A stretch of DNA of 61,037 bases, taken from Raillietiella orientalis. Its lineage: Eukaryota. The translations under genes and the position numbers were made by a program. Below, piece after piece: positions 31,627-59,146 of this stretch. Under the pieces are notes generated by a model. It did no database searches. It had not been told where the DNA came from and worked only from the letters and a program-made list of their open reading frames with translations. Location: positions 6,696,001 to 6,757,037 of the forward strand of contig JAYWIR010000004.1 in the NCBI GenBank assembly GCA_036172245.1. The letters are read 5' to 3'. Each line of letters starts with the position of its first letter. The stretch's first letter is position 1.

Positions 31627-31635
31627 AGGAAACCA

Positions 31636-32616
31636 ACCATCGCCTGCTTCCCTAACGCAGAGGACGATCGTGCCCGCTCGCCATAGGCGGACATCGCGCA
31701 GTCGGCGGTGCACCCTGCTCGCATCGTCTGGCAACCAGACGCCCATGAACGCGACCAGCGGAATTGCTCCGGTCCGAGTTTGCGATTCGTCAACAAGCGC
31801 CGTCCCGATGATCATGCAAGAAGTAGTAGCCCACGGAAAGTAAACGGCGAGCCTCCATTCTGGTAGGAAACTTCGGAGCACGATGGCGTGCGCAACGGTG
31901 CATCCCGATTTTCCAGTTCATCCGCGTCATCGCTTCCTGCAAACGGGAGGAAAATCGCCATCTCAATCCACTCGTACGTTCTTCATAACACTCGAATGCG
32001 GTGAAGCTGAAAAGCGTTGTGTGGTTAGCGTAAACGGTGTGTGGTTCAAAGCATCACACAACTGCTTCAGTACCGTGGACTCGAAAGGTTTTCCAATGGT
32101 ACCGTAGAGAGCAGTTCGAGGAAAGATCGCTGGTACAGCTGTACCACGCTGGTACGGCGGACTCAGGGAAACAATAACACAAGACCTCTGAAGAGTCCAC
32201 AGATTACGATCTCTGTGGTGCGGTATGGCTAAACAGACGAGACACCTCTGCTGTGCAGGCGAGCTGACGATTCGTCCTAAGCACTTGTGGGCCATCCAAC
32301 TGTCTTTGTCTTGTTCTCCTACTTCGCCAAGAGATTTGCTACCGAGCAGGACTTGACTCCGTTATAAAGGAGCCTGCTGCAAAACAGAAGTGCAAGAAGA
32401 GTGCCCACAGGACCTCGGTTGACGAGAATCCTGAAGTATCACAACGAGAACTGATTCGGAATCTCCGAAGAAACCCCACGAGTTTGCTTGCGATGTTTGC
32501 TTCCCGAAATACAAGCGTACGAAACGCACGTTCCATTCATCGGCGCCCGTCTTTCACAGCAAACGTGGTGCCTGGTCCCCGGCAGCGTACCCTTTGCATA
32601 GTTCCAATCCCCCGAT
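31636..32616 (+). repeat. Module B, left copy (inverted duplicate of 51315-52292)
   Basis: Near-identical reverse complement; the MERAFRTL.. and MAHKCLG.. ORFs are mirrored. Confidence 0.97.
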
Positions 32617-34488
32617 GCTTGCGGCTGACTGTTTTCGCGGATTGAGAATCTGGATGCATAGAAGACATTTTATTTCCGTCAATTACAGATGAGGGTTCGA
32701 AGTCCTTGTAGGGTGACGACCAGCTGGCAAGAATTCGGAAAAGAAGGGCGATGGATAACGGCATTCCGACGGTCAAGCCACTCGAGAAAGGAAGAGTTCC
32801 CGAATCCTGGAGGAAATCCATCTTCCTGTTCTCCTGTCCACGACTTGTCCGTCGGTGGCATCGGCGAGGATGGAGCCTCCTCGTGTTGGCGCGGCATGGG
32901 CGGAAGCGCCCCCCCCGAGACGCTTCCGTGCACGCGCAGCGAATTTGCCGCTTTTGCCGGGCGATGAGCCGTCCATCAGGACACGCAGTGTGTGGGAGTG
33001 TCCTGCACGGGGAAAAACGGCTGTTTGTCGGGACGTTGCCTTGGGAGGCCGGTTCCCACGCACCTGATCCAGGCGCCACAGGCCTGTTGGATGCGAGCTG
33101 GCCGCATGCCACGACACGGAGGCCGCGGCTGTCGGTGGAAAGGCAGCCAGGTGCGTGGCCATCGAAGAGGAAGCTCGCTACGAAGGTGCCCTGGTGAAGG
33201 CCGAGGCTCGATTACGCCACGCCCTCGAGGGCGGGCACGGAAGATGAACGGAGCAGACCGTAGACGGCAGCAGCAGGAGCAGGAGCAGCAAGTGAGGTCG
33301 GCAGGAGCTGATCTGACCGCCGGAAATTTGCCGAGGTCTGCTGCTGCCCCTCGTGCTCGACCGCACCTCAGGTGAACGTACACGATGCCTTGCTGTCAAA
33401 GGGGGCGGCTGTGAAGCAGCTAGCTGTGCGCAGACCGACTTACCTGATCTGCCGTGAGGGAGCACGTCGTAAGCTTCCCCGAACACGCTGGGCGCAGTTG
33501 CGACGCCTCGCACGCTTTCGGCTGGCTCTGGCAACGAGCTGCCTGCCGTCAACTTTGACCCGCCCCAGCACACTCACCTCCAAGAGCAGGGGGAAGCCGA
33601 GTGCGGCGCCAACCAGCGCGCACCGGTGAGTCGGGTGCTGGATCGTCGCTGCGGCGACTGGGTGGCACCACGTCGGTGGCGCGTGGTGGTTGGCGTTTTG
33701 GTGTGGCCTGCGGGGCGTTCGCCGAGCCGGCCAAGCGGTAGGTGGGCTCGCGCTTTCCGCTGCGTTTCGAGCGTTGAACGCCCGATCGACGCTGTGCGTC
33801 GCAAGCGCTGGCTGCGGAAGCCGCCGCCGCCCGCAGGCGGCGGGCTGCGCGCGCTTCGGGGTAGGGGGTGGGGTGGGCCGGTTCGCGCTGGCGACAAGGA
33901 GGTGCGGGTGGACGAACCCGAGGCAGCGACGAACGAGATGGCAGCGAGCGAGCGCAACAAGTAACGCTCACGCACTCGCGAGCACGCAAGCGAAGACAGG
34001 CAGGCGACGCAGGTCAGCAGCGAAACGCTGTTGCTACCTACACCTCTTCGAAGAGGTACCGGATGTCCTGCAGGATGTCCTCCTCCTTGTCTATCCAACA
34101 GCCGGTCAGCTGAACGGTAGTCATGCCGGAGAGAACGATTCTCTCGGTGCAGGGGGAGTTGGGAGGGGGCGGGGGCGATTGCCGACGGCGTTTCTGGCGC
34201 AAGCAAGGGCAGATCAGTCCTAGGATGCGGAGCAAGGAAGGCATGGCGCGTCCAAGCTGCAAAATCCGAATGAAAGTGTCGGAAGAATGGTCGTCACCGT
34301 GGAGACGATACCTGGCCGGGGGACCGCTTCCACCACGCGTGCGCGCGTGGTGGAAGCGGGTGGCCATGCGCGGAAGGAAGGGTGCGCAACTCAGCCAGCC
34401 AGGCGCAAGCGATGGTGAGCAGCTCGACTTGCAGCTGCGCGCGGAACGAGTGAAAGCAGCCGGCGTGCCACTCCTGCGCGGGCATCCC
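32330..34488 (-). mobile_element. Degenerate Ty3/Gypsy pol remnant (RT, RNase H, integrase) spanning modules C and B
   Basis: Ordered weak motifs: LTGCWIDKEEDIL (YxDD region), SVFGEAYDVLPHGR (RNase H), RRLHP..KMDFL, FEPSSVIDGN, and ERAFRTL..FLRRFR..TSGFSSTEVL (integrase ER..TGxSPxELL). Confidence 0.5.
32736..34488 (+). repeat. Module C, left copy (inverted duplicate of 59147-60856)
   Basis: Near-identical reverse complement; the right copy lacks left positions 32928-32974. Confidence 0.96.
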
Positions 34489-37500: not shown

Positions 37501-37839
37501 CGTATGTACACGTTTTGCAAAGGCGCCGCTGTGGTGCGTTTGACGGATGTACACGCAGCATGAAAAAAAAACAAAAATTCCGCCTTGCTATCAAAATTCG
37601 AAATTGAATTAAAAAGTTAAAGCAATCTCGTTTGTTTGTGTGTTTTACTTATATTCAGATCGGGACTGCAATGTGCAATGACCTTGATTTTTCATCCGAA
37701 CAGTTTTGAAGTGATGTAACGTATGCCAAGCAAACGAAAAATTCTATCTTCGTTTTCTTTTTACATACTGGATTCGTTTACACGGTTTTTACATAATTGA
37801 AGCTCAAATCGAGGAAGATTTAATCATTTGGAAGATAAC

Positions 37840-38270: not shown

Positions 38271-39491
38271 AAACACCTTGCAAATTTATACCATCTACAC
38301 CATCAAAATCTAGTGCATCGCGAAAGTGTATCGTGTGTTGGAAAAATGGCATTTGTAAGGAAACACGATGTTGGTGCTCAAGATGTGACGTTCCACTTTG
38401 TGTCGTATCTTGTTTTTGAAAAATATCATACTGCATAATCAGACTGAATTCCCTGTGAGTGTTTTTTGTTTGTCTCCTGTGTAAAGTTTCTCATTTTGTG
38501 TAGAATAGCAAAATGTTTATGAATAGATTTTTTTTTCTTGTTTTGCGTTGATATTGACAACAGATACATTTGCTGTTTATTCGACGAATCTATTCGTTTT
38601 CGCGAATGTGAATTCACGTACTCAGAGGTAGACTTCTGAAAAAAAAAAAAAAAAAAACACAGTACTCGCTTAACAGGAGAAGAATGTTTCGGGATGCGTG
38701 TGCACTGCTGCTGGATACTGCTGAGCGTGAAGAAGTGCAGCGTTGCTGCCATCTAGTGCTGCAGGTTCGCACCAGAGCGAGCTCGACATTGTTGGAAATG
38801 TGGCATTGCTGCCAGATTTTCATCAGACTTGGTATGAAAGGGTTGGAAAGGTTTCGTTGTCTGTCATCCGGAGCTTGTTTGTGTGCGTGATGGCCCGCAA
38901 TCGAATTATCTTAATTGCAAGATTTCAACGTTTGCTGCCGGTTAGCATGCAAGTATCAATGTACGATTGCCTGAAATATGTGCATACCGGTTTCACTGGT
39001 ATGAATCTTCAACGCTTTTTGCTGATGGTGTTTGTGCTGAAGATAGGTGCGATTTTTACAGATTGCTTTTTTTTTTTTTTTTTTAAAAAAAAGAAGTGTT
39101 ATGGTGCATGGTTGCATGATTTGGTGCCGTAATTCGTGCGGTTGCTACAAAAGAGTCCGAAGAGCCATTCGGTTGGTTGCTGGGAATTTTGGCTCCTTGA
39201 TGTTTTGAAATACCAAGAAATTTATGCGCGTTCGTAAAGGTGTGTTGGTGTTGTGTCCATGTTCCCATGCGTAACTCTCATTCTTAGATTTCTGGTCTTC
39301 ATTGCTTTAGGGATCTGCGATGCGTGTGAAGAGAACAGCGAAATTTTTACGAATAATGTTTTTGTCTTTTTCCTTGAAATTTACAATAGACAAGTTTGCT
39401 GTGCGATTGACGTATATATACGTTTTCGCCAATTGTGCTTACGCACCCACGGGTACACTTGAAAAAATTAACTCGCTTAACTCCGTCTCGA

Positions 39492-41311
39492 AGGACGCCA
39501 AAGTTGTTGCAAGAAGGAAGCATTTCCGCCCCACAAGCGTTCCTCGATTTCCGAAATCTACAACATTCTGAATATAAATTCCCACGCGGTAGTCCAAAAG
39601 TCCTCTACTCTATCAAACTCGCGGCAGGCCCCAAGGGTCAGCGTCTTTCCCTGATTGCCGGGCTCTCCAGGGGTGTGAAGGCACTTCCTGCTTCCGCGCT
39701 GAATCGCGAGGGCGACGCCCCTTTTCGCTCCGCGAAGCCGAGCAATGCTCTCCTATCCCGACAACAGAGGGAGGGGGTACGCTGCGGCGGAGGCGAACTG
39801 GGATCAGGGACGGGGATGGGACAGAGGATGGAACCCTCTTCTTCCCCTTCCTACCTCCTGTTTTGTTCCCTCCGGCTGTTCCGGTCCCGAGCCGGACACC
39901 GGCTTAATTGCTTCGTAATTATAAATTATGTAGCTTGTATTAAATATTGTCCTTCAGTTTCCTTCGAACGAACCACGGCAAAAAAATGAAGGAAGTCCGA
40001 AGCACCCATTAAGAATGACGAACAGTCGAGTTGCTCAGAAGCGATTCCCGCTTCTGCACTTCCATTTGATATAAGCGTAGTGTTGTTTTCCTGGGCGTCG
40101 TAACTGTCGCAATCCCGTGATTAATTTTCATCTTTCTTAGGAACCTGTCGTTATGACGATTACTGCATTCAGAAACCAGATTTCATATTGGAAGTCGTTG
40201 AATATTCCTCCCCAGTGCTGAAATGCAAAGTCGGCAATCAAGTTGGTCAGGTGCAGTGGACCAAGGATGACTTTGCATTAGGTAAGTACGAAGCGTTTCA
40301 TATGGCCAGTGCGTTCATAAATTAACGGTGAAATATTTCGTAAGCTTTATTTAGTGGAAAGGTGAACAATGTCCTATTCGTTTGGTAGACATATTGTGTG
40401 CCCTTCGCTCTTTGTAGCCCTCTGCTGTGTAGCTCTTTGTATTTAGCGCTCCTCTATCGAACAGTCGACTTTTCGATCTCGAGATAATTCAAGCTACATC
40501 TTCTGTTTCCTTCTTGATGAATGTCACGATTTTTACATATCAAAGTACCAACCGATCTTCCTTTGGTTCCATCGAGTTCTGCTATCTGTAACCCAAATTC
40601 GTGTTCTTCCTTTCGCTATCGTTGCTTCTTCCCCCCCCCTCTCCTCCTTGCCCCAGGAAAACCAGAATTTTGCTTGTTTATTATAATCTAGCAGCAGCAT
40701 TTTTCTTTTCTTTTTATATGGAAGATGAATGCACATTTATCAATTAAGTACATAGTCGTGGTATGATAAGTGTCAAAGCGATCCTTTTCAACTGATTTTC
40801 TTTAGTGTTGTAGGTTTCCTAATAGGCTGGTTAAGTAGTGTTTGATGTGTACCTTTTGCGTGGATTTCAAGTGTTGGCAACTTTTGGTATTTCGCAGTCG
40901 TTTTCCAAAACCCCAGGACGCCAAAGTTGTCTCAAGAAGGAAGCATTTCCGCCCCACAAGCGTTCCTCGATTTCCGAAATCTGCAACATTCTGAATATAA
41001 ATTCCCACGCGGTAGTCCAAAAGTCCTCTACTCTATCAAACTCGCGGCAGGCCCCAAGGGTCAGCGTCTTTCCCTGATTGCCGGGCTCTCCAGGGGTGTG
41101 AAGGCACTTCCTGCTTCCGCGCTGAATCGCGAGGGCGACGCCCCTTTTCGCTCCGCGAAGCCGAGCGATGCTCTCCTATCCCGACAACAGAGGGAGGGGG
41201 TACGCTGCGGCGGAGGCGGACTGGGATCGGGGACGGGGATGGGACAGAGGATGGAACCATCTTCTTCCCCTTCCTACCTCCTGTTTTGTTCCCTCCGGCT
41301 GTTCCGGTCCC
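39492..41311 (+). repeat. 397-bp direct repeat pair (39492-39888 and 40915-41311)
   Basis: AGGACGCCAAAGTTGT...GGCTGTTCCGGTCCC occurs twice, nearly identical, one copy on each side of exon 40141-40281. Confidence 0.96.
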
Positions 41312-44300
41312 TAGCGCGGACATCGGCAGCGCCCGTCGGACCTTCTCACAATGTGAGCAGAGTTTCGTTGTTGGCTGGCCTGACCACCTCATCACGGGGA
41401 GACAGATGCGAATGTGACGTGATCGCAGGAAGATGTTTCCTTTCATTTAGGTTTTCTGGCGGTCAGCACATCAAGAAATGCTCGCACGGTTTTTCTCATT
41501 GAGAAAACTTGTTGCATGTTTCGATCCTTAGGGTGTTTAGGGTGCTTCCATAGCGAGGCCGAGCTGATTCTTCTGATCTGCACTGAGATCTACCGCGTTT
41601 TACATTCGTTCTCCTTTCCCAGGTTTCAATGACAGCCTCCCCAGATATGTAGTCTACAAACCAGATGGCGGTGCAGATCAGGGAGAGCTTCACTTGAGAA
41701 TTTCGAATGTCTCTTTGGATGACGATGCCGTATACCAGTGTCAAGTTGGTCCATCGAAGGCCGAAGGTCATCGTCAGATTTTGGCAGCGGGAAGACTTGT
41801 CGTACTTTGTGAGTAGCATACGGCATTCCTTGATCTCCACTGTAATTTTCCCTTTCAAAGGATTAGTAATGCAATATAGTTTCCAGACCGTGATTACGGT
41901 TCGGGATTTGCTCGTTCCGTGACGCCTTTTTCCTTACCCGCTAAACAGGGCATTGCTTTCTGTTGCTCATATTGGAAGCTTCTCATAGAAAGCGCTCTGT
42001 GGGGGAATCGACCGCCCTTCAGAATGAAGGGGGCGCAGGTTCGACAGCGGTAACCATCATTATGTCAGTTAAAACAAACACCGAATTGCTTTGCTATTGA
42101 GTAAATATGTGATTTTTTCTTGGGAGGATTTCAACAGTCCTTCAAGTGTGTCTACGTTGTGTTGAAAGAGGGTACGATATTATTGAGCCTCATTGACCTT
42201 TGTTATGATGTCGAAAATCCGATCCCCTCGTTGAGTTATGGAGATCCACTTACACCTAATTGTCCTACGTAGTCACGGACCTAATGGAAAACTTCTTTTA
42301 ACTGAAAAAATTCCGTGTTTCCCCTTCCGAAGAGTGTAGCAGCAAGATTATCAAGCGTGGAGAAAAATCTGAAGCTTTTCCTCGGACAGGTGCGAATTCC
42401 GAAGTGCTTACACGAGCTTGACTCTTTTGTGTGTGTGTGTGTTTTTATACAAAGAAACAGTATGGGCATGTAATGAGATTTTAACAAGACACACACAGCC
42501 AAGATCTTTTTGAGGGGAAGGGGCTCGCCGCGGGAGGGGCCGCGCGAGATCGAGTCGCTCCGTTCGACGAAGCGCGTTTCCCATCTCGTCGCGGCAGGGT
42601 CGCGGGAACGCGAAATCTCCTCTCATCAGCAAATCGGGATCGTACTCCGAGACGACGGGTTCGCGTTCCCGGCGTCGAGCCAACCCTCTTCCTCAGAAGA
42701 GTAGGATTCGCGTTTCCGAGAACCCGCCGGGACGCGAGACAGCTCCCGATCTGTTGAAAAGCTGGTGTTGAAAACTAAGTGTTTCCCGAGATTGCGTTTT
42801 GCTTGCGTTTAATGAATCTTGGCGCTTTTTCCGAAAGAAGCTATAGAGTGTTTGATAGGCTCTCTAGCACGTAGCAGAGAACTCTAAAATATTGCAGTTA
42901 AGAAATATAAGGCAACAATTAGGTCTCCTGGAAAATAAATTACGAGAAGAGCTGGGCCAAATCATTGCAAACTTGATCTAAGAGTGGATCATTCTTGCGT
43001 CTCAATTTCAATTGAGTCTTACAGTGTTCTCCTGCTAGCAGAAAATCCATAATAAATTTACCATTGACATTCATGTATCCATATTCAATCTGGAATGCTC
43101 TTCGACCTTCTTCAGGGGTGGCAGATGAGTCATATTGTGCCAGGTAATAAGTGTAAATTTGTTCTAAAGGAGTGGATTTCTTATCTACCCTATGAATAAC
43201 ATCATCCACAATAACATGAGATAAGAAAGTTATGAAATGCACAATTTCTTGACCTCTCATGTTTTTATGAGGAAGCAAAGAAGTCATAAAAGGAGTCAAC
43301 CAACCTTTTATGTATTGGTTAGACGAGGAAGATAAGCCTATGTCTGTGAGTTTAACAATTGTATTGCCAAATCCTGCAGCAAAATACTCCACTAGCTTTG
43401 CAGGGAAAGTAGCTACAATTCTAGGAATAGTAATAGTAGATCCTTTAATGGCGGTGCCACTAGGTCTGACTGAAATGTCAATATTGTATTTAGTTACCAG
43501 CCAACCAATTATGGTCTCTAAGGCTGGCAAGCTTTTCTTTCCTATCTTCTTAATGGAACTCCCTCTTAAGCTAAACATCATTATCAGAAAGCAGATGTCC
43601 TCAGCCAGTTCCCTTTTGTCATCATAGTTAAAAGACAAGGGGTCTGTAGCAGTTCCTCCATAAATCACTGCTACTTCTTTTCTTGATGCATGAGAAGACA
43701 TGTATTTTTCTCTATTTTGCACCAAAAGTTTGGCAATTTCAAGAGGGTTGAACCCTTGATAAGCAAATACATGTTTCAGAATTTCCCACTGGTTACTGTC
43801 TTTAAGCTTGAATATGCCGATCTGATTTAAATCCAAGGCACTGTTCACTTCAGGGCCTGCAGTTTTCAAATGAGATAGGAAAATGTCCCAACTACTCATC
43901 TTGCTGGTTTGTTTCAATCTCTCTTGCCCCTTTTCCTCGATCTTAAAGATACTTTCTTTGATTTCACTTAAGCTCTTGAACTCAAAGAAAGGATTTGAGA
44001 CTTTGAGTAAATATCTTAAATTTCTGACCCTGCTTTCCAATAACAAGATATCTTCGTCGTTTACTTTTACTGGATCTCTAGCTTTTCTAATATATAGACG
44101 AATTAATTCTCTCTCAGCTTCAGATGAACGATCTCTAATTCCAAGTGTGCCTCCTAAAGGTTTGAGCATAAAAGTTCACACGATGATTCTGTGAAACAGT
44201 GACCCATCAATGTGTTTTCGCGTATACATTTCGAGGAGGCGAAGTTGTTCGATAAGTGAGGTCTTCACTCCGGATTCCACGTTTCAGGTGTTATGGCAGC

Positions 44301-47300
44301 AAAAAGACGTGAACGGCTACGGAAGCGCAGGACATTCTGAGGCATCCATTTACTTTATGAGTTTAAGTGTTTGCTCGAACTCGACTTTTCGTCGAGGCCT
44401 CGGGACAGAACAAAACCGGGAAAATCGTGAGGTTTGGGAAAACTCGTCAGACTGTTGTGGTTTATGAAAGCATCGTGTTGGAATGAAAACTGCATCGGTG
44501 GCTCGGGCTAATGCCTGCGCCGATTCCACTTTCCGCAAGGTGCATGAAGGAGAGCACTTGCTCGACTTCGAACAAGTGTTCATTCGAGAATTTCCAGCTC
44601 GTGGAATGGTGGAGCAATTGCAGCGTGGTTTTTAGTATTGTTTTCACCACTAAGGTTTGCTATTTTTACGTCGTCAGGTTTCAGTAACTTTGAAAGTTGA
44701 ATGGCGCACACGCCAAAAGGAACTTACGGCAATAGTGATGGCCTTAAGTGTATCTCCCCAATTTCTGTTCCCTTTCTCCAAATCCACTTGCTATTCCTGA
44801 ACATTGACTTTTTTAACTGCTTAATTAATTAATTAGCCGTTTTACCTCATTTTCCAAGTGTGGACAAAGCATCAATGGGAATCCTCCAAACACGAAAGAA
44901 CGAGCATTTAACTCGGGAAAACCGGCGCAGCTATAATCAGAAAGCTCTCTCTGAAGTGCAAGTTTTTGTTCCCGTATTTGACACCGTATTTCACAGCGCT
45001 TTGGTTTTTGCTCTTTAATTTATTTATTATATTTGTAATCAAATGAGTTGCCAGTTTAGCTGCATGTTCATGCTGCATATTTCTTTTCCTTTACCTCATA
45101 GCGCCTCCGCAAACCATCCAAATTACTGGTAGAAGCGATGGCGAATCTATTGATATTCCAGAAAACGTCACCATCTATTTGGAATGCACCGTCACAAACG
45201 CCAGACCGGCAGCCACGATTAAATGGTACAGAAACAGGCAAGAATTTTTCGGTGCGTCAACTTTTTTTGTTTCGGAAACTTTTTAATAATATGAGGAAAG
45301 TGAGAACCTTTCGAGTTGTTTATATGATTTGAATGCTCTTTGTTTTGTGGTGTCTGTTTCATGTCTCGTTTTAAATGCAGCCATTCTCATCAGAAGACGG
45401 AGTACTAGCAGACGATCCCTACGATGGTTTGTTTTAGTACGAATCGATGCTTTCAATTTATAAGGCAAACAGTTGAGTTCTTGCAGTTCCTTCAAATTAT
45501 AGTTTTGTTCAAAAATTTGCGAGTGTTCCAAATTGAGCGCTCCTTGCAGACTGTGACCTCTGCAACCTTATCGCAAATTTTGCATGTCGGTACCGAGGAA
45601 ACAATTATCTGCGGTATAAAATTTTCCGCTTATTGCAGAATGCTGAAGATGCATATGGTGATTTTTTTTTTTTTTTTTTTTCTTTCCGGAAAATGCATGC
45701 GAAAAATGATTTGGGTAGTGATTTTTTCCTGCTTGTGCAAGCACGTGCAGTGGTTATGCAGCAGCAGTGAAAGCGAAGGCAGAGAGGCAGCTTATTCCCT
45801 TTCTTCCGAATGTGCTCACATATGAAAGTTTTTCAACCCAATTTCACTTGAGCTGAAACGTTCAAGTTGCAGCTGATGGTAGATTTTACATCTTCGGCAC
45901 AACCCTTTATTAAGCAGCGAATTCCCTCAGCTTAAGAAAGCCACAAGAAGACCATTGCAACTTCTGCATTGACTTGGTGGCTAACGGGAATGGCTTTTTG
46001 GAAACCGGTCGAATGTGAAGAGAAGCATCTGCGTACTGCTGTTGTACCAGGATGATACACAATTAAGGGGGGGACTCCTGCTTCCTTGCATGCAGAAATA
46101 CAGTGGACTCGCGTATAGCGCGAGGAATACGTTCCATGTTATAGGAAACCGCGTTACACGAGACATGCCTTGTCAGATGAATTTATGCAAGCTGAAACAT
46201 GAATTAATTAATCACAACCGAGACATGGATGAAACCAAATCAGTAGAATTAGCACGTGGTTCTGTTTCCAGTAACGACGCGGAAAGCTCATTCCAGATTT
46301 TTAATGACCCAGAGCAACATTTGAGTTTGGAGGCTTTAAATAAATAGCAAAAACGCTAGAAACGCATCTTATGAAAATGGAACCGTCGACAGAGAGCTCT
46401 ATTGAATTTAAAAGAAAATGGAATGATTGTCCATCCCCATATTTGCAAGCCAGAAATGATCTGGAAAAAGCATTGTTTCCAAATAACGATAATAATAAAG
46501 ACGAAACTATAGGCTCTCTAAGCTATGAATTTGTACAGCCAATGTTAAAAAAACGGTGTCATCGGCACCCATTTGTGGATACTTCCGATAGTGATTAAAC
46601 GCCTAATAGTGAAGTGTGTCCAGTTGGATGAGTTTTGATGTAGCGGGTGTGTTGGAGGGTGTAACTGGGTAAGGGATGGTTTATTAGTTTGGTCGTCATC
46701 CCTAGTGACATTCAAAGGTATGAATTCGTAGATGGCGTCTTGTGATTGTCAAAGCATAGGAATCCAATCTAGGGATGCGAAAAATTGCCAAATGACGGTT
46801 TTCTCGCGTTCTTGTGATTCTAATCCATGATAAGTGTGCATTAGAGAGAGACGCTGAATGATTCTAAAGCGATTGTTTTCTGTTTCCATGTTTAAAATTA
46901 CGAGATGATTTGTCGGAATGCTTTCAGGACCTCATGCAACGGAAGCAAAAGAAGGAACTTTGCCCAAACGTCAGAGTACTAGAAGTGGCATTTCCATCGT
47001 TCCTCGTGCTTCTGACAACAAGTCCACTTACACGTGTACTGCCTACCACCCTGCTCTTTTCATCCCTATGACCTTCTCAGTCGTTCTCAATGTCCTCTGT
47101 AAGCACAGCTTAGGTATCCTGATATCCCTTTGATCACTCGAGCGGTCTAGATCCACCTGGAGCTCCGGAGATAACTGGGTACAACGATGGACAAATCATA
47201 AAGACGAATGAGTCGGTGACGTTGACGTGTCGCCACGGATCGCGTCGCGGAAACCCTGTAGCTCAGCTTATTTGGTCAAAGAACGGGAAGGTAATCGGCT

Positions 47301-47814
47301 TCGGTTATTCTACTTCGTGGAAAATGTCCGGCTCCATCTACATTTTCAAAGCCGACGTCTTGGATCACAATGCCACATACCGTTGCGAAGCAATTAATAA
47401 AATGGCATCTTCTGCGTTAGAGGCTACCGTGAGGTTGTCCGTGGCATGTGAGTCTTATCGAGGTTACTGAAGAAAGAACAGTTTACCTGTGTCTTCGACT
47501 AGTTGGACCTGCTAGACTTACCATAATGGGAGACAGGAAAGCTCGAATGGGTCAGAGAGTTACTCTTTCATGCACCGCCTCTGGCAGCAATCCGGCAGCC
47601 AAGGTCATCTGGATTGTGGATGGGAAAGAGGCCGAAGACAACAGCAGCAGCTTGCATACGTCGACAGTCCTTTCGCCGGAAGGTGGTTGGATCACAATCA
47701 GTAATATAACGCACGCCATCGAACCTGTTCAAAGAAATGTGATGTTCAGCTGTCTCGCTTACAATGGAATCTTCGGAAAAACAATAATAAAGAGCCATTC
47801 CGTTAATGCCACAT
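40141..47814 (+). CDS. Nephrin/Sticks-and-stones/Hibris-like Ig superfamily gene, six open exons encoding Ig1-Ig4; signal-peptide exon not located
   Basis: GT-AG phase-1 exons 40141-40281, 41623-41808, 45102-45251, 46928-47098, 47151-47447, 47503-47814, all multiples of 3. Motifs VQWTKDDFALG, LRISNVSLDDDAVYQCQVGP, PPQTIQI..CTVTNARPAATIKWYR, YPPGAPEITGY..GNPVAQLIWSKNG, SNPAAKVIW..SPEGGWITISNIT. Confidence 0.9.
42940..44169 (-). CDS. Endogenous viral element: bunyavirus (Phenuiviridae-like, Tenui_N family) nucleocapsid, intact 409 aa
   Basis: Intronless open frame, AT-rich and CpG-poor relative to its flanks. FAYQGFNP, D.CFLIMMFSLRGSSIKKIGKKS, LVTKYNI and ITIPRIVATFP are collinear with phlebovirus N motifs FAYQGFD, D.KKMIVLALTRGNKP, LINKYKL and LTLSRVAA. 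Confidence 0.9.
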   Translation of the reverse strand: MLKPLGGTLGIRDRSSEAERELIRLYIRKARDPVKVNDEDILLLESRVRNLRYLLKVSNPFFEFKSLSEIKESIFKIEEKGQERLKQTSKMSSWDIFLSHLKTAGPEVNSALDLNQIGIFKLKDSNQWEILKHVFAYQGFNPLEIAKLLVQNREKYMSSHASRKEVAVIYGGTATDPLSFNYDDKRELAEDICFLIMMFSLRGSSIKKIGKKSLPALETIIGWLVTKYNIDISVRPSGTAIKGSTITIPRIVATFPAKLVEYFAAGFGNTIVKLTDIGLSSSSNQYIKGWLTPFMTSLLPHKNMRGQEIVHFITFLSHVIVDDVIHRVDKKSTPLEQIYTYYLAQYDSSATPEEGRRAFQIEYGYMNVNGKFIMDFLLAGEHCKTQLKLRRKNDPLLDQVCNDLAQLFS

Positions 47815-48099
47815 GTAGGTTACGAATCGTGATTCCAAGGACAAGTGCTTTCAATGAAAGTAGATCCACATCCCGTGCCTTACCTCGCCGCACACACGAG
47901 CAACAAACCACTAGTGGCTGGTAACGTCATCCATCTTCTGTGCAATTCTACTTGGTGGTGGTGCACCATTTTGGCGTGCTGGACTTCTTAGTGCCGTGAG
48001 CACTCTTAGTGCGTGCTATCTGCCTTGAAGGAGCGCCAAAAGCTTTGGAGGAAACTCGAAATACAGTGGAAATTGAAGATTTGAAAAGAAAGGAAAGCT

Positions 48100-49890
48100 T
48101 CAAGCTTCAGAGGCACCAAAGAGAGACGTCACACCTAGACTAGGAAGAGAATATTGACCAAGAAGGCAGGAATAAATGTCAATTGGTTTGCTTCCCAAAT
48201 TCCAATCTTTTGTCTTCTGGAAAGCACGCTGGTTGTTCATCCTAACCAGTGATCCAAGATATGGCTTCAGTAAATGTCCACTGCAAACCGTCGTCTTCGT
48301 GTTTTCTGTTTGTATGTCAGGGATCCCAAATTCCCTCAAAACCACGTCGTCATTTGGGTTCCAGCACCCAGAGATCTACCCCGTGGTGCTTCTGCTGATG
48401 CCGGCCGGTACTCTCCTTGTCAGCAGGGATAGTTTCCTGACGTAGCCTCTTTGCTTTGTCGTCCTTCTTGCAGCTCTGCCCCTGAGTGCTCAACAAGGCA
48501 GAGGTGCTATCGACTCTGATGACTTTCTGGAAGCCCACGTCCTGTTGGCGTCCTAAAGTCGTTTCCTGGGATCGCTTCGTTTAAGCTACCGGCTGTTGAC
48601 TTCAAACCAACCAGCCGGTGGTCAGTAACCATAAGCAATAACATACCATAGTCCCTTTTCTGCTTCGTCTTCGGCGCATCCCTGTATTCCAGGAGTTCAC
48701 TGGTTAATAGCTGCGTAGAAATTCTCCATTCAAACATGCGTGAATGTAGTGCAGTTTGGAATTGTCCAATAGATTTCTGTAGTCACATCATTTCATCTGT
48801 TCCAGAGGCTCTCGAATAGAATGCATTTTATTATCATGCTGGACGTCCTCTTGAAACGAGGCATGCCATCCAGAGAAACGGTAAACAACGCGTACCATCT
48901 AGCTGTACGTGCGCGAACAAGAAATCGAAGGAAATGAAGTTTCTCGAAGAATATTTGGTCCTTTTGAATTGGTTGGTTTGGAAGCGCGCGGATATTGCTG
49001 GAGCCTCAGGAAAAAGAAAACAATAAACTTCTGTGGAATTGATACGTGATTTCAAACCAGAGATAAAAATGCTGTTCAAAACTGTGATTGCTAGCGAAAT
49101 GGCGCATTTAGAAACCATGACAATAAATTAGAGATTCGCTGAATTGGATTCACTGAATGCTGGATCAGCGACCGTGATTGCCTGTGAAGAGCTTCTGACG
49201 AAACCCTCATTAATCTCGTCGTTTCCATTATTTCGGTGCAGTTGTATCGAAAAGGTTCATGTGCACGAATCTGTCCAAAGAAGAGTCGGTTTTCTTCGGA
49301 ACTGTTGAAAACCTCGTTCTCAACAGTGAGAGTTCCTTATCCGGAAGTTGTCACCGTGGTGAAGGAGGCTTTCCGGAATTATAGTACATCTCAGTCAAAT
49401 GATTCACGATAAACACAACAGGAACAAACCAACACGAATCACGAAACACCCTTCTATTTCTTCTCTTTCCTTCCTTGAAGAGTTTGGCGTCGGGAAAGGT
49501 TAGCTTCAAATCTGGCACGAAACAGCGCAGGTGCTCAGTTTGTAAAACATGCGCCGCATGATCACGCCCGCCGAACGACAACCGCGATATCCGGAATGTC
49601 ACGAAATGGCTCCATTATACCATCCCAAGACGTAAATAACCACGAAGATACCTATTTTTATTTGATTTCTTTTTTCCTCTTCACCTACCAGAAGGGAACT
49701 TCGCCAGGCATCGGGCTGGTTGCGCAGGATCTGCCTTCTTGGGTTTAGGAATCGATAGGCCATAGGATCGCAAAAATCTTGTATGTTTATTGATCACTAT
49801 AAACATCCCAGCTATTTTAAATTCGAACCGAAATGGCTCTTGCAGTTGGTCGACGAAATCTTGTGCAAAACCCAAAAGTAGCACCAATCA
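48100..49890 (-). mobile_element. Degenerate Ty1/copia RT-RNase H remnant
   Basis: VLREFGI..MNNQRAF..GSKPIDI resembles copia RNase H (LLxELG..DNQSA..xKHIDI); preceded by KSTAG and SALLST-like segments; heavily broken, upstream boundary uncertain. Confidence 0.5.
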
Positions 49891-49984
49891 ACACCAACAC
49901 CTTCGATTTCTTCCACTCTAGCAGGGAGCAACTGTCCCAGTTCTTCTGCTCCAGGCAATAGTAACATCTCATTCTACTTTTCAA

Positions 49985-50276
49985 TCAAACCTGAGTTGCT
50001 CGATGCGCATCCAGACAGAATAGATGTGACCGAGGGAGAGTCCGTGGTTCTCAACACTTCAAGAAGAAATTCTCGCAACGCCGCCTACCTCTGGACTCCG
50101 AACGGAGCGAACTTCGCGCACAGCTATGCGCCCCGTGCCGCAAGTGCCCTCATAAGTATCGACGGCCAACTTTTTCTGAAAATTGCAGTGAGTATCAGGA
50201 AAGGCACAGGAACTTACGGACAGGAGGTCATGAACACGGAAGGAACCTCTTAGATCCGTCTACATCAACATGCGGT
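49985..50276 (+). pseudogene. Decayed nephrin-like Ig exon (Ig6-like)
   Basis: KPELL..IDVTEGESVVLN..YLWTPNG..DGQLFL..GTYGQEVMNTEG; conserved Cys lost, frameshift/stop near 50251, donor GTAAGT after 50276, no clear acceptor. Confidence 0.7.
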
Positions 50277-50744
50277 GTAAGTTCGTTCTTTCCTGTCTTT
50301 CTTCTATTCGGTCAGTAAACCGAATTGTCAGTCTGGGTCCACGCGGTTCCCATCGGCAACGTTTTCGTGGATATGCGCCCCGGAGACGTAAAAGGATTTC
50401 TAGGGTGTTAATATCACACTGATCTCGTACGCATCTTCCGCAACTCTGTTTATCTCCCTTCGTGATATGCAAATTTAATGCAGGGTGGCGCCTCAACGTA
50501 GCGAGGAGCAGAAGTTTTTAGAACCTCCCTGCGTTTTGTTTGCGAGGCTTTCGGCGTTTTTAAAGTTTCATTCGGCGGATGGTTCTTAAGAGTCCCGGAA
50601 TGGGATAAGGCAAGGCGCACCACAACCTTCTACCGTCTCCAACCCGAACTATGGAAGACTTCAAAGCGCTTTTTTCTAAGCCTTCCTTGTTTCCATAGTC
50701 CTCCTGCGGTCAACGAGATCACATCTCCCGTTATCACTGCAAGC

Positions 50745-50971
50745 AGCAATGTGTTCCTGGAATCCTCAACGGAAGCCAACACTTTTGCCGACACGACAAC
50801 AACCTGGACAAGGGAAAAACTATCCCATGGAGAAACAGACCAGGTAATGTTACAGAAACGAAAAACTGACTGTACTTAACTTCTCCTGAGAAGACACTGG
50901 GATATTCATCTACGTGGCCAACAACGGTGTCAGCCAAGCAACCAAAAGGACGGCACTGCTGATAGCGAAAT
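50745..50971 (+). pseudogene. Decayed nephrin-like Ig exon (Ig7-like)
   Basis: ..LTVLNFS*EDTGIFIYVANNGV..TALLIAK followed by donor GTAAGC; in-frame stops and loss of Cys. Confidence 0.75.
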
Positions 50972-51314
50972 GTAAGCGAAGTACTTCTTTCCTCTTCGCA
51001 TTTGCGGACGAATCACCGCCAATTCGCACCTACCACACTAACAAGAGCTGGCATCGTCGATTCGCAATGTGAGCATTTGTCTTACCAACGCATGAAGGTT
51101 GAAGAGAACAAAACAAATACAACAGCAACAAAGAATCCGATTGAAGCTCGAAACGAGCCATGATGCGCCAACCGTGAATTCTTAATGAGGGATTTCTTCC
51201 TGCACAAATTGCTACTAATTATTTCAATTGGGTGCTCGTAATGATGTTGCTGCAAAAGTGCAGTGAAAGCTCAAACGCCTTGCATCGTTGGCCGCATCTA
51301 CCATGACCGAGAGA

Positions 51315-52292
51315 ATCGGGAGATTGGAACTATGCAAAGGGTACGCTGCCGGGGACCAGGCACCACGTTTGCTGTGAAAGACCGGCGCCGATGAATGGAA
51401 CGTGCGTTTCGTACGCTTGTATTTCGGGAAGCAAACATCGCAAGCAAACTCGTGGGGTTTCTTCGGAGATTCCGAATCAGTTCTCGTTGTGATACTTCAG
51501 GATTCTCGTCAACCGAGGTCCTGTGGGCACTCTTCTTGCACTTCTGTTTTGCAGCAGGCTCCTTTATAACGGAGTCAAGTCCTGCTCGGTAGCAAATCTC
51601 TTGGCGAAGTAGGAGAACAAGACAAAGACAGTTGGATGGCCCACAAGTGCTTAGGACGAATCGTCAGCTCGCCTGCACAGCAGAGGTGTCTCGTCTGTTT
51701 AGCCATACCGCACCACAGAGATCGTAATCTGTGGACTCTTCAGAGGTCTTGTGTTATTGTTTCCCTGAGTCCGCTGTACCAGCGTGGTACAGCTGTACCA
51801 GCGATCTTTCCTCGAACTGCTCTCTACGGTACCATTGGAAAACCTTTCGAGTCCACGGTACTGAAGCAGTTGTGTGATGCTTTGAACCACACACCGTTTA
51901 CGCTAACCACACAACGCTTTTCAGCTTCACCGCATTCGAGTGTTATGAAGAACGTACGAGTGGATTGAGATGGCGATTTTCCTCCCGTTTGCAGGAAGCG
52001 ATGACGCGGATGAACTGGAAAACGGATGCACCGTTGCGCACGCCATCGTGCTCCGAAGTTTCCTACCAGAATGGAAATGCCGTTTTTACTTTCCGTGGGC
52101 TACTATCTCTGGCACATCATCGGGACGGCGCTTGTTGACGAATCGCAAACTCGGACCGGAGCAATTCCGCTGGTCGCGTTCATGGGCGTCTGGTTGCCAG
52201 ACGATGCGAGCAGGGTGCACCGCCGACTGCGCGATGTCCGCCTATGGCGAGCGGGCACGATCGTCCTCTGCGCTAGGGAAGCAGGCGATGGT
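51315..52292 (-). repeat. Module B, right inverted copy
   Basis: Reverse complement of 31636-32616. Confidence 0.97.
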
Positions 52293-52328
52293 GGTAATGG
52301 GAACACCCGTGAACACTTCTTGCTGTTG

Positions 52329-55068
52329 ACTATCGTGCTGTTCTCCACAGGGAAAACCACTGCTGCTCGGGCTGAATGCTTGAGAGGCAAGGTCAAAGCA
52401 TCTCTTGGAAGCAGAAGTAGCACACGTTCCCTGCAACCATGTCAAATGGAAGTCAAAACCCCAACTGTTATCTTGCTATCATCATGCATGAAAATGATGG
52501 TGTGATGGACGAAGATGCTGGCAGTCATAGCTGTAGCGATTCAGCTGATCAAGCTGAACCACATACGTCTTATTTGCGTATGCAATGATCACGGGCATCG
52601 CAAACCTGGCCAAGCATTGCTATGACCTGCGCTTTTCCCATCCTCGAGTTGAGAAAATCAAGGTAAGAAAGGTGAATTAGGAAATAATGTGCTGCAAGGC
52701 TGCCATGTTGACTTGTGTGCCGTAAAGGGCATTTTGGGGGTGTTCTGAGCCAAATGCTAATTGGTACAAACCGTGAGATTCTCCAGATTGTGCGCTACGT
52801 ATTTCTGTGTTTGGTAAAGAAAAAACTTGCGTCATACCCCGACCAGCAAAGTAAGGCGCACAAGTTTCCCGTATGAAGTGTGTGGTCTGTAGGAATGACG
52901 CCATCACCCATTTGCAGCTTGCTAGCCAAGCAGCGGACAGCATTAGAGATGGCGAACTAGCAGAGCGCATGATTCTGAGGAAGAATTGCTACCTGTTGTA
53001 GTAATTGTGTGTAGCAATTTGATGTTCACAGCAAGGAGGCGTTCTTTTCAAGTGTTTTTCCAGGTAGCCTGCCAGCTGGCCACCTCAGCCAGCGCATCGA
53101 TTTCTCTTTTTGGTTCGGTCGGAATTCTCGTGCTAAGAAATGTTATCGTTTTCTGTGGGAACTGCAGCCTCATCTGCGCTTGAAGCAATGCTTGTACACC
53201 TGCTAATCGGACATTTTGTTGTGCAGTATTTGATGTGGAAAAGATGAAAGCAACCTCGACTACCATCCGCATTTGTGATTTGCAATCCAACAGCCACTGA
53301 TACATCATTAGTTGGATAGGTTGTGGATAGGATGGAGCGTTGCTGCTTGTTAAGAAAGGATCCGGAATTCTTTGACGAGGCTGTGTAGCTGGCCAGGGAT
53401 GCATTCCGTGGCAAGGCTGGCTGCAAATGTGAAAGCAGCTTACACACGACCATGTAATGATAAGAAGCTTCACCGGATGCCTTACTTTGTGGATTTGGGG
53501 GGCCATAGACGGCAGGCTCGGCCGGTCTCATAGTAATCGAGTGAAGATGGAAGGGAATGAAAAGATAATGTGAAAGCTTCACCGAGTAGCAAGGAAGGAT
53601 GCTGATGACCAGAGTGAATCCTTCCCGATTCCCAGACTTCATTTTGCATATGATCCGGATTGCTTATCGATAGCTAATAAAAGGTTTGCCCATTGACTGG
53701 TAGCATACGGATAAGATCTGGATAAGCAATCGACATCATGGTCGACATTAAAGATTGAAGAAAGACATGTGGTTTACTTGCTGGTAGCGCCATTCATTGG
53801 TTTGGTTCGGTGCAAAGTTCGCACGTTCCTTGAGGTTAGTTTTCAGGAAGCAAGCAGCTCATTGCAGCTTTGCCGCCTGGTGCGGAAGAAACCAATCGTT
53901 CGAGTATTGCATGCAAAGTATTGTGCGTTTCGTTGAAGCAGAAAAAGGATATCAGCAAACGAACCTGAAGGAATGGTTCTGCTTGCCAGCGATTGATTCT
54001 TTCCTCGTCTGCACACCAAGATTGTATTCCCTGCGTGAGGTGGTTGGGACATCCGTCCCGACGGAATCCTCCACGCCGCCGGCGAGCACGTGGACCAACG
54101 CGCCAGCAGCTCCGTCTCCTTCTACCGCTTTCGACATCGGGCATCCCGACACGTCAGCCTGCTGAGACGTTCGGGATTGAGCAGGCACGGAATCAAAGCC
54201 TTCAGGCCCCAAGAATTTTCTTCCAGTCATCTGGGCATCGCGCGGTGTTTTCTTTCACCACACCACGCGTGGCACAACCCGATATGGCACCCTTGGAGCA
54301 ACGGATAACGACGTGGAAGTGCCACGCCTAGCGCAGCCCTCCTTCTTCAACCAGATGACGTGCTCGAACTTGGAAACCCTTACATTCTTTTCTGTTTGTC
54401 GCCCTGCATAGGGAAGGAATGTTGATCGAGTGCTAGGCAGTGGAAATCGTAAATGAAACACGAAAACCGAGCACGCTTTCGAAACGCACTTTCCAGCATG
54501 CTCTGTGACTTTCAAGCCGGAATGCCGCCATTGCTTACTTTGCGAATCCAAATATACACGACCCATCATCTATTTCGAGTAGCCGATAAACGCACATGCG
54601 TGCTCCAGGATGATAGGCATGCATCCGTGGTTCGGAAAGGATCGTGTTTGCGCAGATATCGTTTTCTTTCGAATGTAAAAGTTTCCCCTTGTGCTTGAAT
54701 TCATTTCGATGACCAATTTTTCACGCTTTGGCAATCCGTTTTTTGCCGTGTGTTGCGGTGCCGCGACGTTTTGGATGGAATCTTTCCGTTCGTTCATGGA
54801 TTCGCCTCCTGAAGCTGGAAGAGCGAAGCACGTGGTGCACACGGTGCGGCCATTCTCGTATTCTTCATGGACGCGCGCTGCGATCAGCTGATCACGAGTT
54901 CGCTGGTTTGCGCCAGCAGGAGAAAGGCAAAAAAAGGTCGCAAGCTAGGTGCAAGTGGTGTAGCTTCACAGAGTTATGTCTATGCCACATCCTGCAAAGT
55001 TTGGCTGCAAAAGTTGGCACCTGCTCGCAAGAAAACACGCATGATCGAACAAACAACTTTTCGGTGCA
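52329..55068 (-). repeat. Module A, right inverted copy
   Basis: Reverse complement of 26420-29166 with small indels. Confidence 0.97.
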
Positions 55069-59100: not shown

Positions 59101-59146
59101 GTGCTTCTGCAGCGAAGGTAGAATTTGCGTTTCTTGAGGATGTCCA

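What the first reader, a model, noticed from the sequence alone, without database searches (positions are those of the whole stretch)
40141..51314. Decaying nephrin paralog as a possible antisense transcript source for the viral insert (candidate piRNA/siRNA locus)
Seen: the EVE (intron 41809-45101) and the copia remnant are both antisense to the nephrin-like gene, and the unit sits between multi-kb inverted repeats of TE fragments. Known: arthropod EVEs are enriched in piRNA clusters and yield antisense piRNAs. Inference: the host pre-mRNA would carry RNA complementary to viral N mRNA, so a dying gene could serve as an immune-memory precursor.
Basis: inference. Interest (0 to 1): 0.72.

Follow-up and report, generated by a model that had tools for sequence, protein, structure and literature searches.

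The report
Intact bunyavirus-like gene inside host intron
A complete nucleocapsid gene from an unknown bunyavirus-like virus lies backwards inside an intron of a half-decayed cell-adhesion (nephrin-like) gene; this is a known kind of viral fossil, and whether it feeds antiviral small RNAs could not be tested here.

Summary
A 411-codon open frame on the minus strand (42940-44175) is a full-length nucleocapsid (N) gene of the phlebovirus/tenuivirus fold, at most 35% identical to any protein found. It lies antisense in a canonical GT-AG intron (41809-45101) of a plus-strand nephrin/Sns-like gene.

Three parts of the description need correcting:
- **"Decaying" is half right.** Exons for Ig1-Ig4 (40141-47814) are intact and in phase. 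Everything downstream is missing or carries in-frame stops.
- **No copia remnant was found.**
- **The flanking inverted repeats are real (94-99% identical) but not shown to be transposon-derived.** No transposon domain was found in them, and one pair carries an RFC1 exon fragment.

The piRNA/siRNA idea could not be tested, because no RNA runs and no genome were available. It is an established concept for arthropod viral insertions. Two features weaken this route: the insert sits in a well-defined, probably spliced intron, and no transposon-graveyard context was shown.

My best reading is a young or constrained insertion that is passively carried and still intact. The rivals are a small-RNA source and a co-opted N protein gene. 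This is a new member of a known kind, of moderate-to-low interest.

The parts
42940..44175 (-). Endogenous viral element: uninterrupted 411-codon frame plus stop (stop codon 42940-42942). ATG at codon 3 (44169-44167) and at codon 93 (43899-43897).
   Evidence: Pfam Tenui_N; HMMER 172 hits; fold
42943..43899 (-). Core nucleocapsid, M93 to S411 (319 aa). It aligns end to end with 310-340 aa homologues and keeps 9 of 9 invariant and 11 of 11 near-invariant residues of the 25-sequence alignment.
43900..44169 (-). N-terminal extension (M3 to K92), predicted as three helices, with no homologue found. It has the same AT-rich composition as the core. Such a stretch stays open by chance in about 1 of 10,000 shuffles.
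41809..45101 (+). Host intron (3293 nt, GTGAGT...CATAG, phase 1) that holds the viral insert. No other copy of its sequence exists in the window.
40141..40281 (+). Exon A: first half of Ig1 (…VQWTKDDFALG), phase 1-1.
41623..41808 (+). Exon B: second half of Ig1 (V-set).
45102..45251 (+). Exon C: first half of Ig2 (C2-set).
46928..47098 (+). Exon D: second half of Ig2.
47151..47447 (+). Exon E: Ig3.
47503..47814 (+). Exon F: Ig4, preceded by a 55-nt intron.
47861..47945 (+). Possible start of Ig5 (…PLVAGNVIHLLCNS). The frame then loses Ig character and stops. Pseudo-exon.
   Evidence: three-frame reading; inference
49987..50262 (+). Degenerate Ig remnant matching nephrin profile states 634-724 (11.4 bits). 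The second canonical Cys is lost.
50815..51009 (+). Degenerate Ig remnant (profile states 770-826, 11.8 bits). It has in-frame stops inside the conserved motif, and Cys is replaced by Tyr.
26420..29166 (.). Left arm of the largest inverted repeat (partner 52329-55068, 98.6%). Carries an RFC1 C-terminal-domain fragment at 28290-28478 (-).
52329..55068 (.). Right arm of the largest inverted repeat. RFC1 fragment at 53015-53203 (+).
31632..34488 (.). Left arms of three further inverted pairs: 31632-32619, 32736-32927 and 32972-34488. GC-rich, no Pfam domain.
51312..52295 (.). Right partner of 31632-32619 (98.1%). It begins where the finding's interval ends.
59147..60856 (.). Right partners of 32972-34488 (99.0%) and 32736-32927 (94.3%).
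39492..39903 (+). Direct repeat, copy 1 (copy 2 at 40915-41327, 97.6%). The two copies flank exon A.
40915..41327 (+). Direct repeat, copy 2.

Best explanation
What it is (well supported): a non-retroviral endogenous viral element. It is the complete nucleocapsid gene of an unsampled phenui-related, bunyavirus-like virus of arthropods. It is inserted antisense in the Ig1/Ig2 intron of a nephrin/Sticks-and-stones-family gene. Of that gene, only the first four Ig domains are still intact.

How it most likely works (inferred): it is a passenger. The insertion is either young or under some constraint, because the whole 1.2-kb frame is still open. Its antisense orientation is chance or the usual retention bias, in which intronic insertions that put their own signals on the sense strand are removed. 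The host intron has strong splice signals, so the viral sequence would be spliced out with the intron. Some small RNAs may well map to it, as they do to many such insertions, but no feature of the sequence marks this locus as a dedicated small-RNA source.
For: Identity of the insert:
- Pfam Tenui_N is above the cut-off.
- HMMER gave 172 hits at E<=1e-3, 100 at <=1e-10 and 19 at <=1e-30, with the best at 31-35% identity.
- A profile of 25 sequences hits solved N proteins of Rift Valley fever, Toscana and SFTS viruses; 13 chains at E<=1, best 6.7e-14.
- The AlphaFold model has pLDDT 84.6.
- Its nearest folds are N proteins of arthropod bunya-like and phenui-related viruses (best 7.6e-19) and solved phlebovirus N (about 1e-6).

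Integration:
- Host exons lie in phase on both sides of the insert in one contig.
- The insert has GC 37% and GC3 35%, against 48% and 48% for the host exons.

Intactness:
- There are no stops in 411 codons, and 11 of 11 near-invariant family residues are kept.
- 191 of 3699 possible substitutions would create a stop. An unconstrained frame of this size would survive with 5% probability only up to about 1-2% divergence. This is my calculation and assumes an indel:substitution ratio of 0.1-0.2.
- The neighbouring repeats differ by 1-2.4%, so a young age fits the local history.

Passenger reading:
- The splice signals are strong.
- No transposon or retroelement domain was found in 38-53 kb apart from one sub-threshold piggyBac-like match at 37989-38435.
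- Housekeeping-type exons lie within 20 kb (C2, SHQ1-like, SAICAR synthetase). This does not look like a transposon graveyard.
- Antisense bias of intronic insertions is described for mammals (PMC3088655; I saw the search listing and the start of the abstract only).
Against: - An intact 409-codon frame that keeps all conserved residues is also what selection for a protein would leave.
- The terminal branch of the insert is long: 2.02 against a median of 1.25, fourth longest of 25. Its leave-one-out profile score is low in the family: 294 bits, rank 21 of 25. The insert is therefore not obviously fresh from a sampled virus.
- Surveys report piRNAs from 35.7% to 81.4% of arthropod viral insertions (10.1101/396382, passages). 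In Aedes aegypti about 99% of transcription from such insertions is antisense (PMC7161354, abstract and passages). 'No small-RNA role' is therefore not a safe default.
- The locus is bracketed by very similar inverted duplications, an unusual setting that I cannot explain.
- No expression data of any kind were seen.
Confidence: 0.45

Rival explanations
1. The truncated nephrin-like gene is still transcribed. Its unspliced or intron-retaining RNA has the polarity of the viral genome strand for N. That RNA is processed into piRNAs (or, together with a minus-strand transcript, into siRNAs) that can target N mRNA of a related virus.
For: - The orientation is right.
- The insert is long and intact. 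Longer insertions are more often found in piRNA clusters (10.1101/396382, passages).
- Literature base rates are 35.7-81.4% (same preprint).
- An insertion outside annotated clusters can still give piRNAs (PMC8048955, passage on CFAV-EVE-3).
- The 3' half of the host gene is dead, so the transcription unit may be free to take on another role.
- About a third of 26-61 kb is repeated within the window.
Against: - The insert sits in an intron with consensus donor, polypyrimidine tract and acceptor.
- Exons A-F still look selected as coding sequence, so splicing is expected.
- The supposed second antisense element was not found.
- No transposon domains were found in the flanks.
- In Aedes aegypti such insertions lie mostly in intergenic repeat-rich clusters (PMC7161354, abstract).
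- The inverted repeats would pair with each other and leave the insert in the loop, so they would not make it double-stranded.
- No first exon or promoter of the host gene was found within 10 kb upstream by a crude scan.
- No close exogenous relative is known that such RNAs could target (best 35% protein identity; none).
Confidence: 0.22
2. Co-opted protein gene. The N frame is expressed from the minus strand as a gene nested in the intron, and is kept by selection. It could act, for example, as a decoy nucleocapsid that interferes with related viruses.
For: - The frame is uninterrupted from an ATG at codon 3, or from codon 93 with A at -3.
- All 20 conserved positions are kept.
- The upstream 92 codons are open far beyond chance (0.0001) and are predicted helical.
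- A variant poly(A) signal, ATTAAA, lies 127 nt after the stop on the minus strand.
- There is a precedent: a phantom midge fixed and expresses a captured phasmavirus N gene (PMC6620529, abstract and section 3.3 read).
Against: - Intactness is equally expected of a young neutral insertion.
- No orthologous or paralogous copy was available for a selection test.
- This exact protein, in its M3 or M93 form, is not among about 15 billion public predicted proteins.
- In Aedes aegypti only about 1.4% of transcription from such insertions is sense (PMC7161354, abstract).
- The single poly(A)-like hexamer is weak evidence.
Confidence: 0.18
3. Artefact. The junctions are an assembly chimera or viral cDNA contamination, and the inverted repeats are a fold-back misassembly.
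For: - The repeat arms are 98-99% identical.
- No reads could be laid to check the junctions.
Against: - The insert is flanked on both sides by exons of one gene that stay in phase across it.
- The repeat pairs have three different midpoints (about 40.7, 42.0 and 46.8 kb, computed), so they are not one fold-back.
- The intron flanks around the insert are unique, non-viral sequence.
Confidence: 0.04

Closest known systems
Non-retroviral endogenous viral elements (NIRVS) of bunyavirus-like origin in arthropod genomes, such as the phenui-like insertions reported in ticks and mosquitoes (PMC6580184, passages)
   Same: An RNA-virus gene integrated in host DNA, with low identity to known viruses and derived from a segmented negative-strand lineage.
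   Different: Here the whole N frame is intact, whereas most reported insertions are fragments. It also sits inside a spliceable intron of a recognisable host gene and not in an intergenic repeat cluster.
piRNA-cluster-resident viral insertions of Aedes (flamenco-like cluster, PMC7161354; cluster survey, PMC8048955)
   Same: The viral sequence lies antisense to the presumed direction of host transcription, in a repeat-containing neighbourhood.
   Different: The Aedes elements are arrays of many insertions fused to LTR-retrotransposon fragments on one strand, with measured phased piRNAs bearing a 5' U. Here there is a single insertion, no retroelement was found beside it, and there are no small-RNA data.
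Host-captured, expressed phasmavirus nucleoprotein gene of the phantom midge Chaoborus americanus (PMC6620529)
   Same: A complete bunyavirus-order N coding sequence, and only N, is fixed in an insect-like genome.
   Different: In the midge, expression and fixation were shown and a close exogenous virus is known. None of that is known here, and the virus family differs (phenui-related, not phasma).
Phlebovirus/tenuivirus nucleocapsid proteins (Pfam PF05733; solved structures 3LYF, 4H5M, 4CSF, 4J4R)
   Same: Same fold and profile.
   Different: The core is about 70 residues longer than the roughly 245-aa phlebovirus N, there is a further 92-residue helical extension, and identity to the solved structures is only 14-20%.
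Hairpin-RNA endo-siRNA loci (long inverted repeats transcribed as one RNA; recalled from Drosophila work, no paper read here)
   Same: Near-identical inverted repeats of 1-2.7 kb.
   Different: The arms lie 18-26 kb apart, are not in mirror order, and enclose the viral insert without containing it.

Membership tests
Phlebovirus/tenuivirus-type nucleocapsid (Pfam Tenui_N, PF05733) | Significant match to the family profile | tested here: met
   E=3.8e-7, 30.4 bits against a gathering score of 25. All 10 of 10 homologues tested also match.
Phlebovirus/tenuivirus-type nucleocapsid (Pfam Tenui_N, PF05733) | Same fold as solved N proteins | tested here: met
   The alignment profile hits RVFV N at 6.7e-14. 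Foldseek gives TM 0.69-0.79 normalised to the solved chains, probability 1.00.
Phlebovirus/tenuivirus-type nucleocapsid (Pfam Tenui_N, PF05733) | RNA binding and oligomerisation through the N-terminal arm | not testable with these tools
   Only residue conservation was seen.
Non-retroviral endogenous viral element | Virus-derived sequence contiguous with host sequence on both sides | tested here: met
   Host exons B and C flank it in phase. Not verified with reads.
Non-retroviral endogenous viral element | Germline fixation or inheritance | not testable with these tools
   No genome, population or read data.
piRNA cluster / piRNA source locus | Dense 24-32 nt small RNAs with a 5' U bias and strand asymmetry | not testable with these tools
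   No small-RNA data could be reached.
piRNA cluster / piRNA source locus | Many nested transposon fragments, mostly antisense to the direction of transcription | tested here: not met
   The only match is one sub-threshold piggyBac-like hit (19.7 against 22.4 bits), and it is on the sense strand. There was no retroelement domain or motif and none in the repeat arms. Caveat: Pfam sees only protein-coding remnants, and no repeat library was on hand.
Nephrin / Sticks-and-stones / Hibris IgSF adhesion receptors | N-terminal Ig domains collinear with family members | tested here: met
   Profile states 34-432 of 1369 map in order onto exons A-F, at 40-62% identity per exon to insect nephrins.
Nephrin / Sticks-and-stones / Hibris IgSF adhesion receptors | Full architecture: 8-9 Ig domains, fibronectin-III, transmembrane segment and cytoplasmic tail | tested here: not met
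   States 433-633 and 827-1369 have no match anywhere in the window. States 634-826 have only two matches of about 11 bits, with stops and lost cysteines. Exons beyond the window cannot be excluded.
Ty1/copia retrotransposon remnant | Recognisable gag, protease, integrase or RVT_2 sequence | tested here: not met
Hairpin-RNA siRNA locus | The sequence to be silenced lies within the paired arms | tested here: not met
   The insert (42.9-44.2 kb) lies between the arms. The intron has no second copy in the window.

The most novel reading that the evidence does not exclude
A half-dead adhesion-receptor gene has been recycled as a single-strand small-RNA precursor. Its promoter and first exons drive transcription through an intron that stores a complete N gene of a still-unsampled phenui-related virus. 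The near-identical inverted duplications around it mark or trigger the locus. This would be a way to make a new 'genic' antiviral piRNA source outside classical transposon clusters.
Probability: 0.1. Interest if true: 0.65.

Novelty: new member of a known kind. Interest (0 to 1): 0.33.

Why it matters
If the insert is only a passenger, its main value is as a clean, complete record of an otherwise unsampled phenui-related virus lineage, no more than 35% identical to anything in a 1.8-billion-protein library. It also gives a datable insertion in a recognisable intron.

If it produces antisense small RNAs from a host gene's intron, or is expressed as a protein, it would add a case to the open question of how arthropods turn viral insertions into immunity outside classical piRNA clusters.

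Both alternatives can be tested cheaply with stranded long-RNA and small-RNA sequencing of this species.

Tried and rejected
- **RNA evidence.** The look-up of sequencing runs (kind rna, 40141-50140) listed no RNA holder, so read laying could not be used. This is not evidence either way.
- **Own genome.** It is not held, so copy number and orthologues could not be examined.
- **Word-based protein searches with the N frame.** The single sequence gave 0 of 4213 candidates. The alignment profile recovered only P0027, which is already in the alignment. The exhaustive HMMER search was what found the family.
- **Names for the top 10 hits.** None carried a virus name.
- **ESM Atlas.** No usable hit.
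- **Earlier notes of this scan.** Nothing by place, sequence or words.
- **The search for related loci.**
  - With P0009 in metagenomes it found none.
  - With P0001 in viral contigs and in metagenomes it found none.
- **Exact look-up of the M3 and M93 protein forms.** Neither is in the collection.
- **Bunyavirus-type terminal motifs in the intron.** These are short consensus motifs recalled from memory. Only one-mismatch chance-level matches turned up.
- **Target-site duplication.** One 9-nt repeat was found, where about 1.2 are expected by chance by my estimate.
- **Plus-strand AATAAA in the intron.** There are 2, against 1.4 expected, so no sign of enforced premature termination.
- **Copia.** See the observation check. 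Note that one Pfam call with 15-kb read-through frames failed because its output was too large; I repeated it on shorter stretches. Stretches of 38-53 kb outside those four introns were covered only through ORFs of >=45 aa.
- **Rfam, tRNA and tandem-repeat scans of the window.** All empty.
- **Signal-peptide first exon within 10 kb upstream.** A crude scan gave one poor candidate locus at 30182, with two alternative donor sites.
- **Rejected idea: the inverted repeats are a fold-back misassembly.** The pair midpoints differ, as computed.
- **Rejected idea: the arms are transposon copies.** This is not shown, and one pair holds an RFC1 fragment.

Full report
**The viral insert**

The longest open frame in the interval is on the minus strand, 42940-44175: 411 codons from stop to stop.

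- Pfam places residues 187-285 in Tenui_N, the tenuivirus/phlebovirus nucleocapsid family (E=3.8e-7, 30.4 bits, cut-off 25).
- A word-indexed search found nothing (0 of 4213 candidates).
- An exhaustive HMMER search of 1.84 billion representatives found 172 proteins at E<=1e-3, 100 at <=1e-10 and 19 at <=1e-30. The best were 31-35% identical and 310-390 aa long, and aligned to residues about 93-409 of the frame.
- The ten best sit on contigs of 1.2-1.8 kb, with one of 4.1 kb. None has a virus name.
- A profile of 25 of these sequences hits the solved N proteins of Rift Valley fever, Toscana, SFTS and related viruses (13 chains at E<=1, best 6.7e-14).
- An AlphaFold model has mean pLDDT 84.6. 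It is closest to N proteins of arthropod bunya-like and phenui-related viruses: Bunyavirus sp. at 7.6e-19, then Browner virus, Hubei bunya-like virus 3, a thrips-associated bunyavirus and OKIAV275. It also matches solved phlebovirus N.

The canonical N begins at the ATG of codon 93 (43899) and runs for 319 aa.

- It keeps 9 of 9 invariant and 11 of 11 near-invariant alignment positions.
- The 92 codons upstream have the same AT-rich composition and an ATG at codon 3, and are predicted as three helices.
- That stretch is open in only about 1 of 10,000 composition-preserving shuffles. I read it as a real N-terminal extension of the viral protein.
- Several relatives also carry N-terminal extensions.

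**The host gene**

On the plus strand there are six exons with canonical GT-AG borders, all in phase 1:

| Exon | Coordinates | Content |
|---|---|---|
| A | 40141-40281 | Ig1, first half |
| B | 41623-41808 | Ig1, second half |
| C | 45102-45251 | Ig2, first half |
| D | 46928-47098 | Ig2, second half |
| E | 47151-47447 | Ig3 |
| F | 47503-47814 | Ig4 |

They are inferred from sequence and homology, not from transcripts.

- Joined in a script, the exons give a 418-aa open frame with four Ig domains, each keeping the Cys...Trp...Cys pattern.
- The Ig3 exon finds 37 nephrin/Sticks-and-stones proteins among 187 candidates. Identity is 47-53% to insects, 38-42% to bivalves and 39-41% to crustaceans.
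- tblastn with 7 of these proteins, and a profile of 35, map residues or states 34-432 in order onto exons A-F.

The donor is GTGAGT, the acceptor follows a long pyrimidine tract, and the reading frame is preserved from exon B to exon C. The insert is therefore intronic and antisense, as claimed.

**Is the gene decaying?**

Only in its 3' part.

- After exon F there is a possible Ig5 start (47861-47945), and then the frame collapses.
- Profile states 433-633 and 827-1369 have no match on either strand of the window. These cover Ig5-6, the last Ig, fibronectin-III, the membrane span and the tail.
- States 634-724 and 770-826 match weakly at 49987-50262 and 50815-50976 (11.4 and 11.8 bits).
- The second remnant has a stop codon inside the conserved motif before the canonical cysteine, another stop upstream, and Cys replaced by Tyr.
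- No first (signal-peptide) exon was recognised within 10 kb upstream by a crude scan.

The unit looks like a truncated gene or partial duplicate. Its 5' four-domain part is either still selected or recently copied.

**The surroundings**

Self-comparison confirms four inverted pairs of 94-99% identity bracketing the unit, and a 413-nt direct repeat (97.6%) on either side of exon A. The pairs are not in mirror order and have different midpoints, so they are not one palindrome.

I could not show that they are transposon fragments.

- Of the 164 ORFs of >=85 aa outside 38-53 kb, I scanned 99.
- I then scanned 77 shorter ORFs of the left arms and the adjoining stretch to 37.6 kb, and 57 more of flanks and the right arm.
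- The only domain inside an arm is an RFC1 C-terminal-domain fragment. It is present in both copies: 28290-28478 on the minus strand and 53015-53203 on the plus strand, E=8.3e-13 each. The surrounding 401 nt are 400/401 identical.
- No other RFC1 part lies nearby, so this is a duplicated gene fragment.

The left part of the window holds ordinary host exons: C2 domain, SHQ1-like, SAICAR synthetase.

The copia remnant was not found.

- There was no retroelement domain in 99 plus-strand or 103 minus-strand ORFs of >=45 aa in 38-53 kb.
- There was none in minus-strand read-through translations of 41.8-42.9, 44.2-45.1, 45.3-46.9 and 47.9-49.9 kb.
- No YxDD or CCHC motif occurs in the window.
- The only transposase-like signal is a sub-threshold piggyBac-type match at 37989-38435 on the plus strand.

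**Age and constraint of the insert**

- 191 of 3699 possible single substitutions would create a stop. With an assumed indel:substitution ratio of 0.1-0.2, an unconstrained frame of this length has a 5% chance of surviving about 1-2% divergence.
- The frame is therefore young or selected.
- The local repeats differ by 1-2.4%, so a young age is unremarkable here.
- Against a very recent capture from a sampled virus: the nearest protein is only 35% identical, the leave-one-out profile score is 294 bits (rank 21 of 25, range 201-405), and the terminal branch is 2.02 against a median of 1.25. An unsampled donor lineage explains these as well as relaxed constraint does.
- No target-site duplication, viral terminal motif or poly(A) tail marks the borders.
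- Composition places the viral stretch at about 42.83-44.2 kb.

**The small-RNA hypothesis**

A plus-strand transcript would carry the complement of N mRNA.

Nothing could be learnt about transcription or small RNAs, so the idea is judged on context and priors.

For it, from the literature:
- In a survey of 48 arthropod genomes, 81.4% of viral insertions inside and 35.7% outside piRNA clusters gave primary piRNAs (10.1101/396382, passages).
- In Aedes aegypti about 99% of transcription from such insertions is antisense (PMC7161354, abstract and passages).
- Insertions outside clusters can also give piRNAs (PMC8048955, passage).

Against it:
- The Aedes sources are intergenic arrays of insertions fused to retrotransposon fragments (PMC7161354). 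Here there is one insert, no retroelement beside it, housekeeping-type genes close by, and an intron whose signals predict efficient removal.
- That intronic lariat RNA is a poor piRNA precursor is my inference from general knowledge, not a result.
- The inverted repeats would pair with each other and not with the insert.
- No virus close enough to be targeted is known.

I put the specific host-pre-mRNA route at about 0.2.

**Alternatives**

- **A nested, expressed N gene.** The precedent is the captured phasmavirus N of a phantom midge (PMC6620529, abstract and section 3.3). This fits the intact frame and the conserved residues, but it has no independent support (about 0.18).
- **A passively carried, still-intact insertion.** Its orientation would be chance or the known retention bias for antisense intronic insertions (PMC3088655, listing only). 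This needs the fewest assumptions (about 0.45).
- **Misassembly.** Unlikely, given the in-phase exons on both sides (about 0.04).

**Verdict**

The interpretation remains an untested application of a known concept.

The insert is a new member of a known kind. It is notable mainly for being complete and for representing an unsampled phenui-related lineage.

Noticed in passing
window 28290-28478 (-) and 53015-53203 (+): Two identical copies of a fragment of the RFC1 (replication factor C large subunit) C-terminal domain lie inside the largest inverted-repeat pair. No other RFC1 exons are nearby. This is a duplicated gene fragment, not a transposon.
   Followed up: partly
window 22383-22700 (-): An ORF of 106 aa matches Y1_Tnp, the IS200-like tyrosine transposase (Pfam E=9.2e-10, above cut-off). 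This is an unusual domain for an animal-type genome region.
   Followed up: no
protein P0030 (1883 aa): One relative of the N protein is the C-terminal part of a long protein that also carries Viral_helicase1 and RdRP_2, the alphavirus-like plus-strand replicase. Either this N fold also serves plus-strand viruses, or the contig is chimeric. P0036 (2240 aa) and P0056 (1172 aa) are also long fusions.
   Followed up: partly
window 39492-39903 and 40915-41327: A 413-nt direct repeat (97.6%) flanks exon A of the nephrin-like gene. It has no Pfam, Rfam or tRNA match and may be a short non-autonomous element.
   Followed up: no
window 32000-38000 and 55000-61000: GC-rich blocks (52-63% GC) have long open frames in all six frames and no Pfam or Rfam match. 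Parts of them form the inverted repeats. Their nature is unknown.
   Followed up: partly
window 14977-15747 (-), 20243-20722 (-), 23624-24079 (+): Ordinary host exons lie within 20-25 kb of the insert: a C2 domain, an SHQ1-like CS domain (below cut-off) and SAICAR synthetase. The neighbourhood is gene-bearing.
   Followed up: no
window 47448-47502 and 47815-47860: Very short introns (55 nt and a putative 46 nt) lie between Ig-domain exons, in contrast to the 3.3-kb intron that holds the insert.
   Followed up: no
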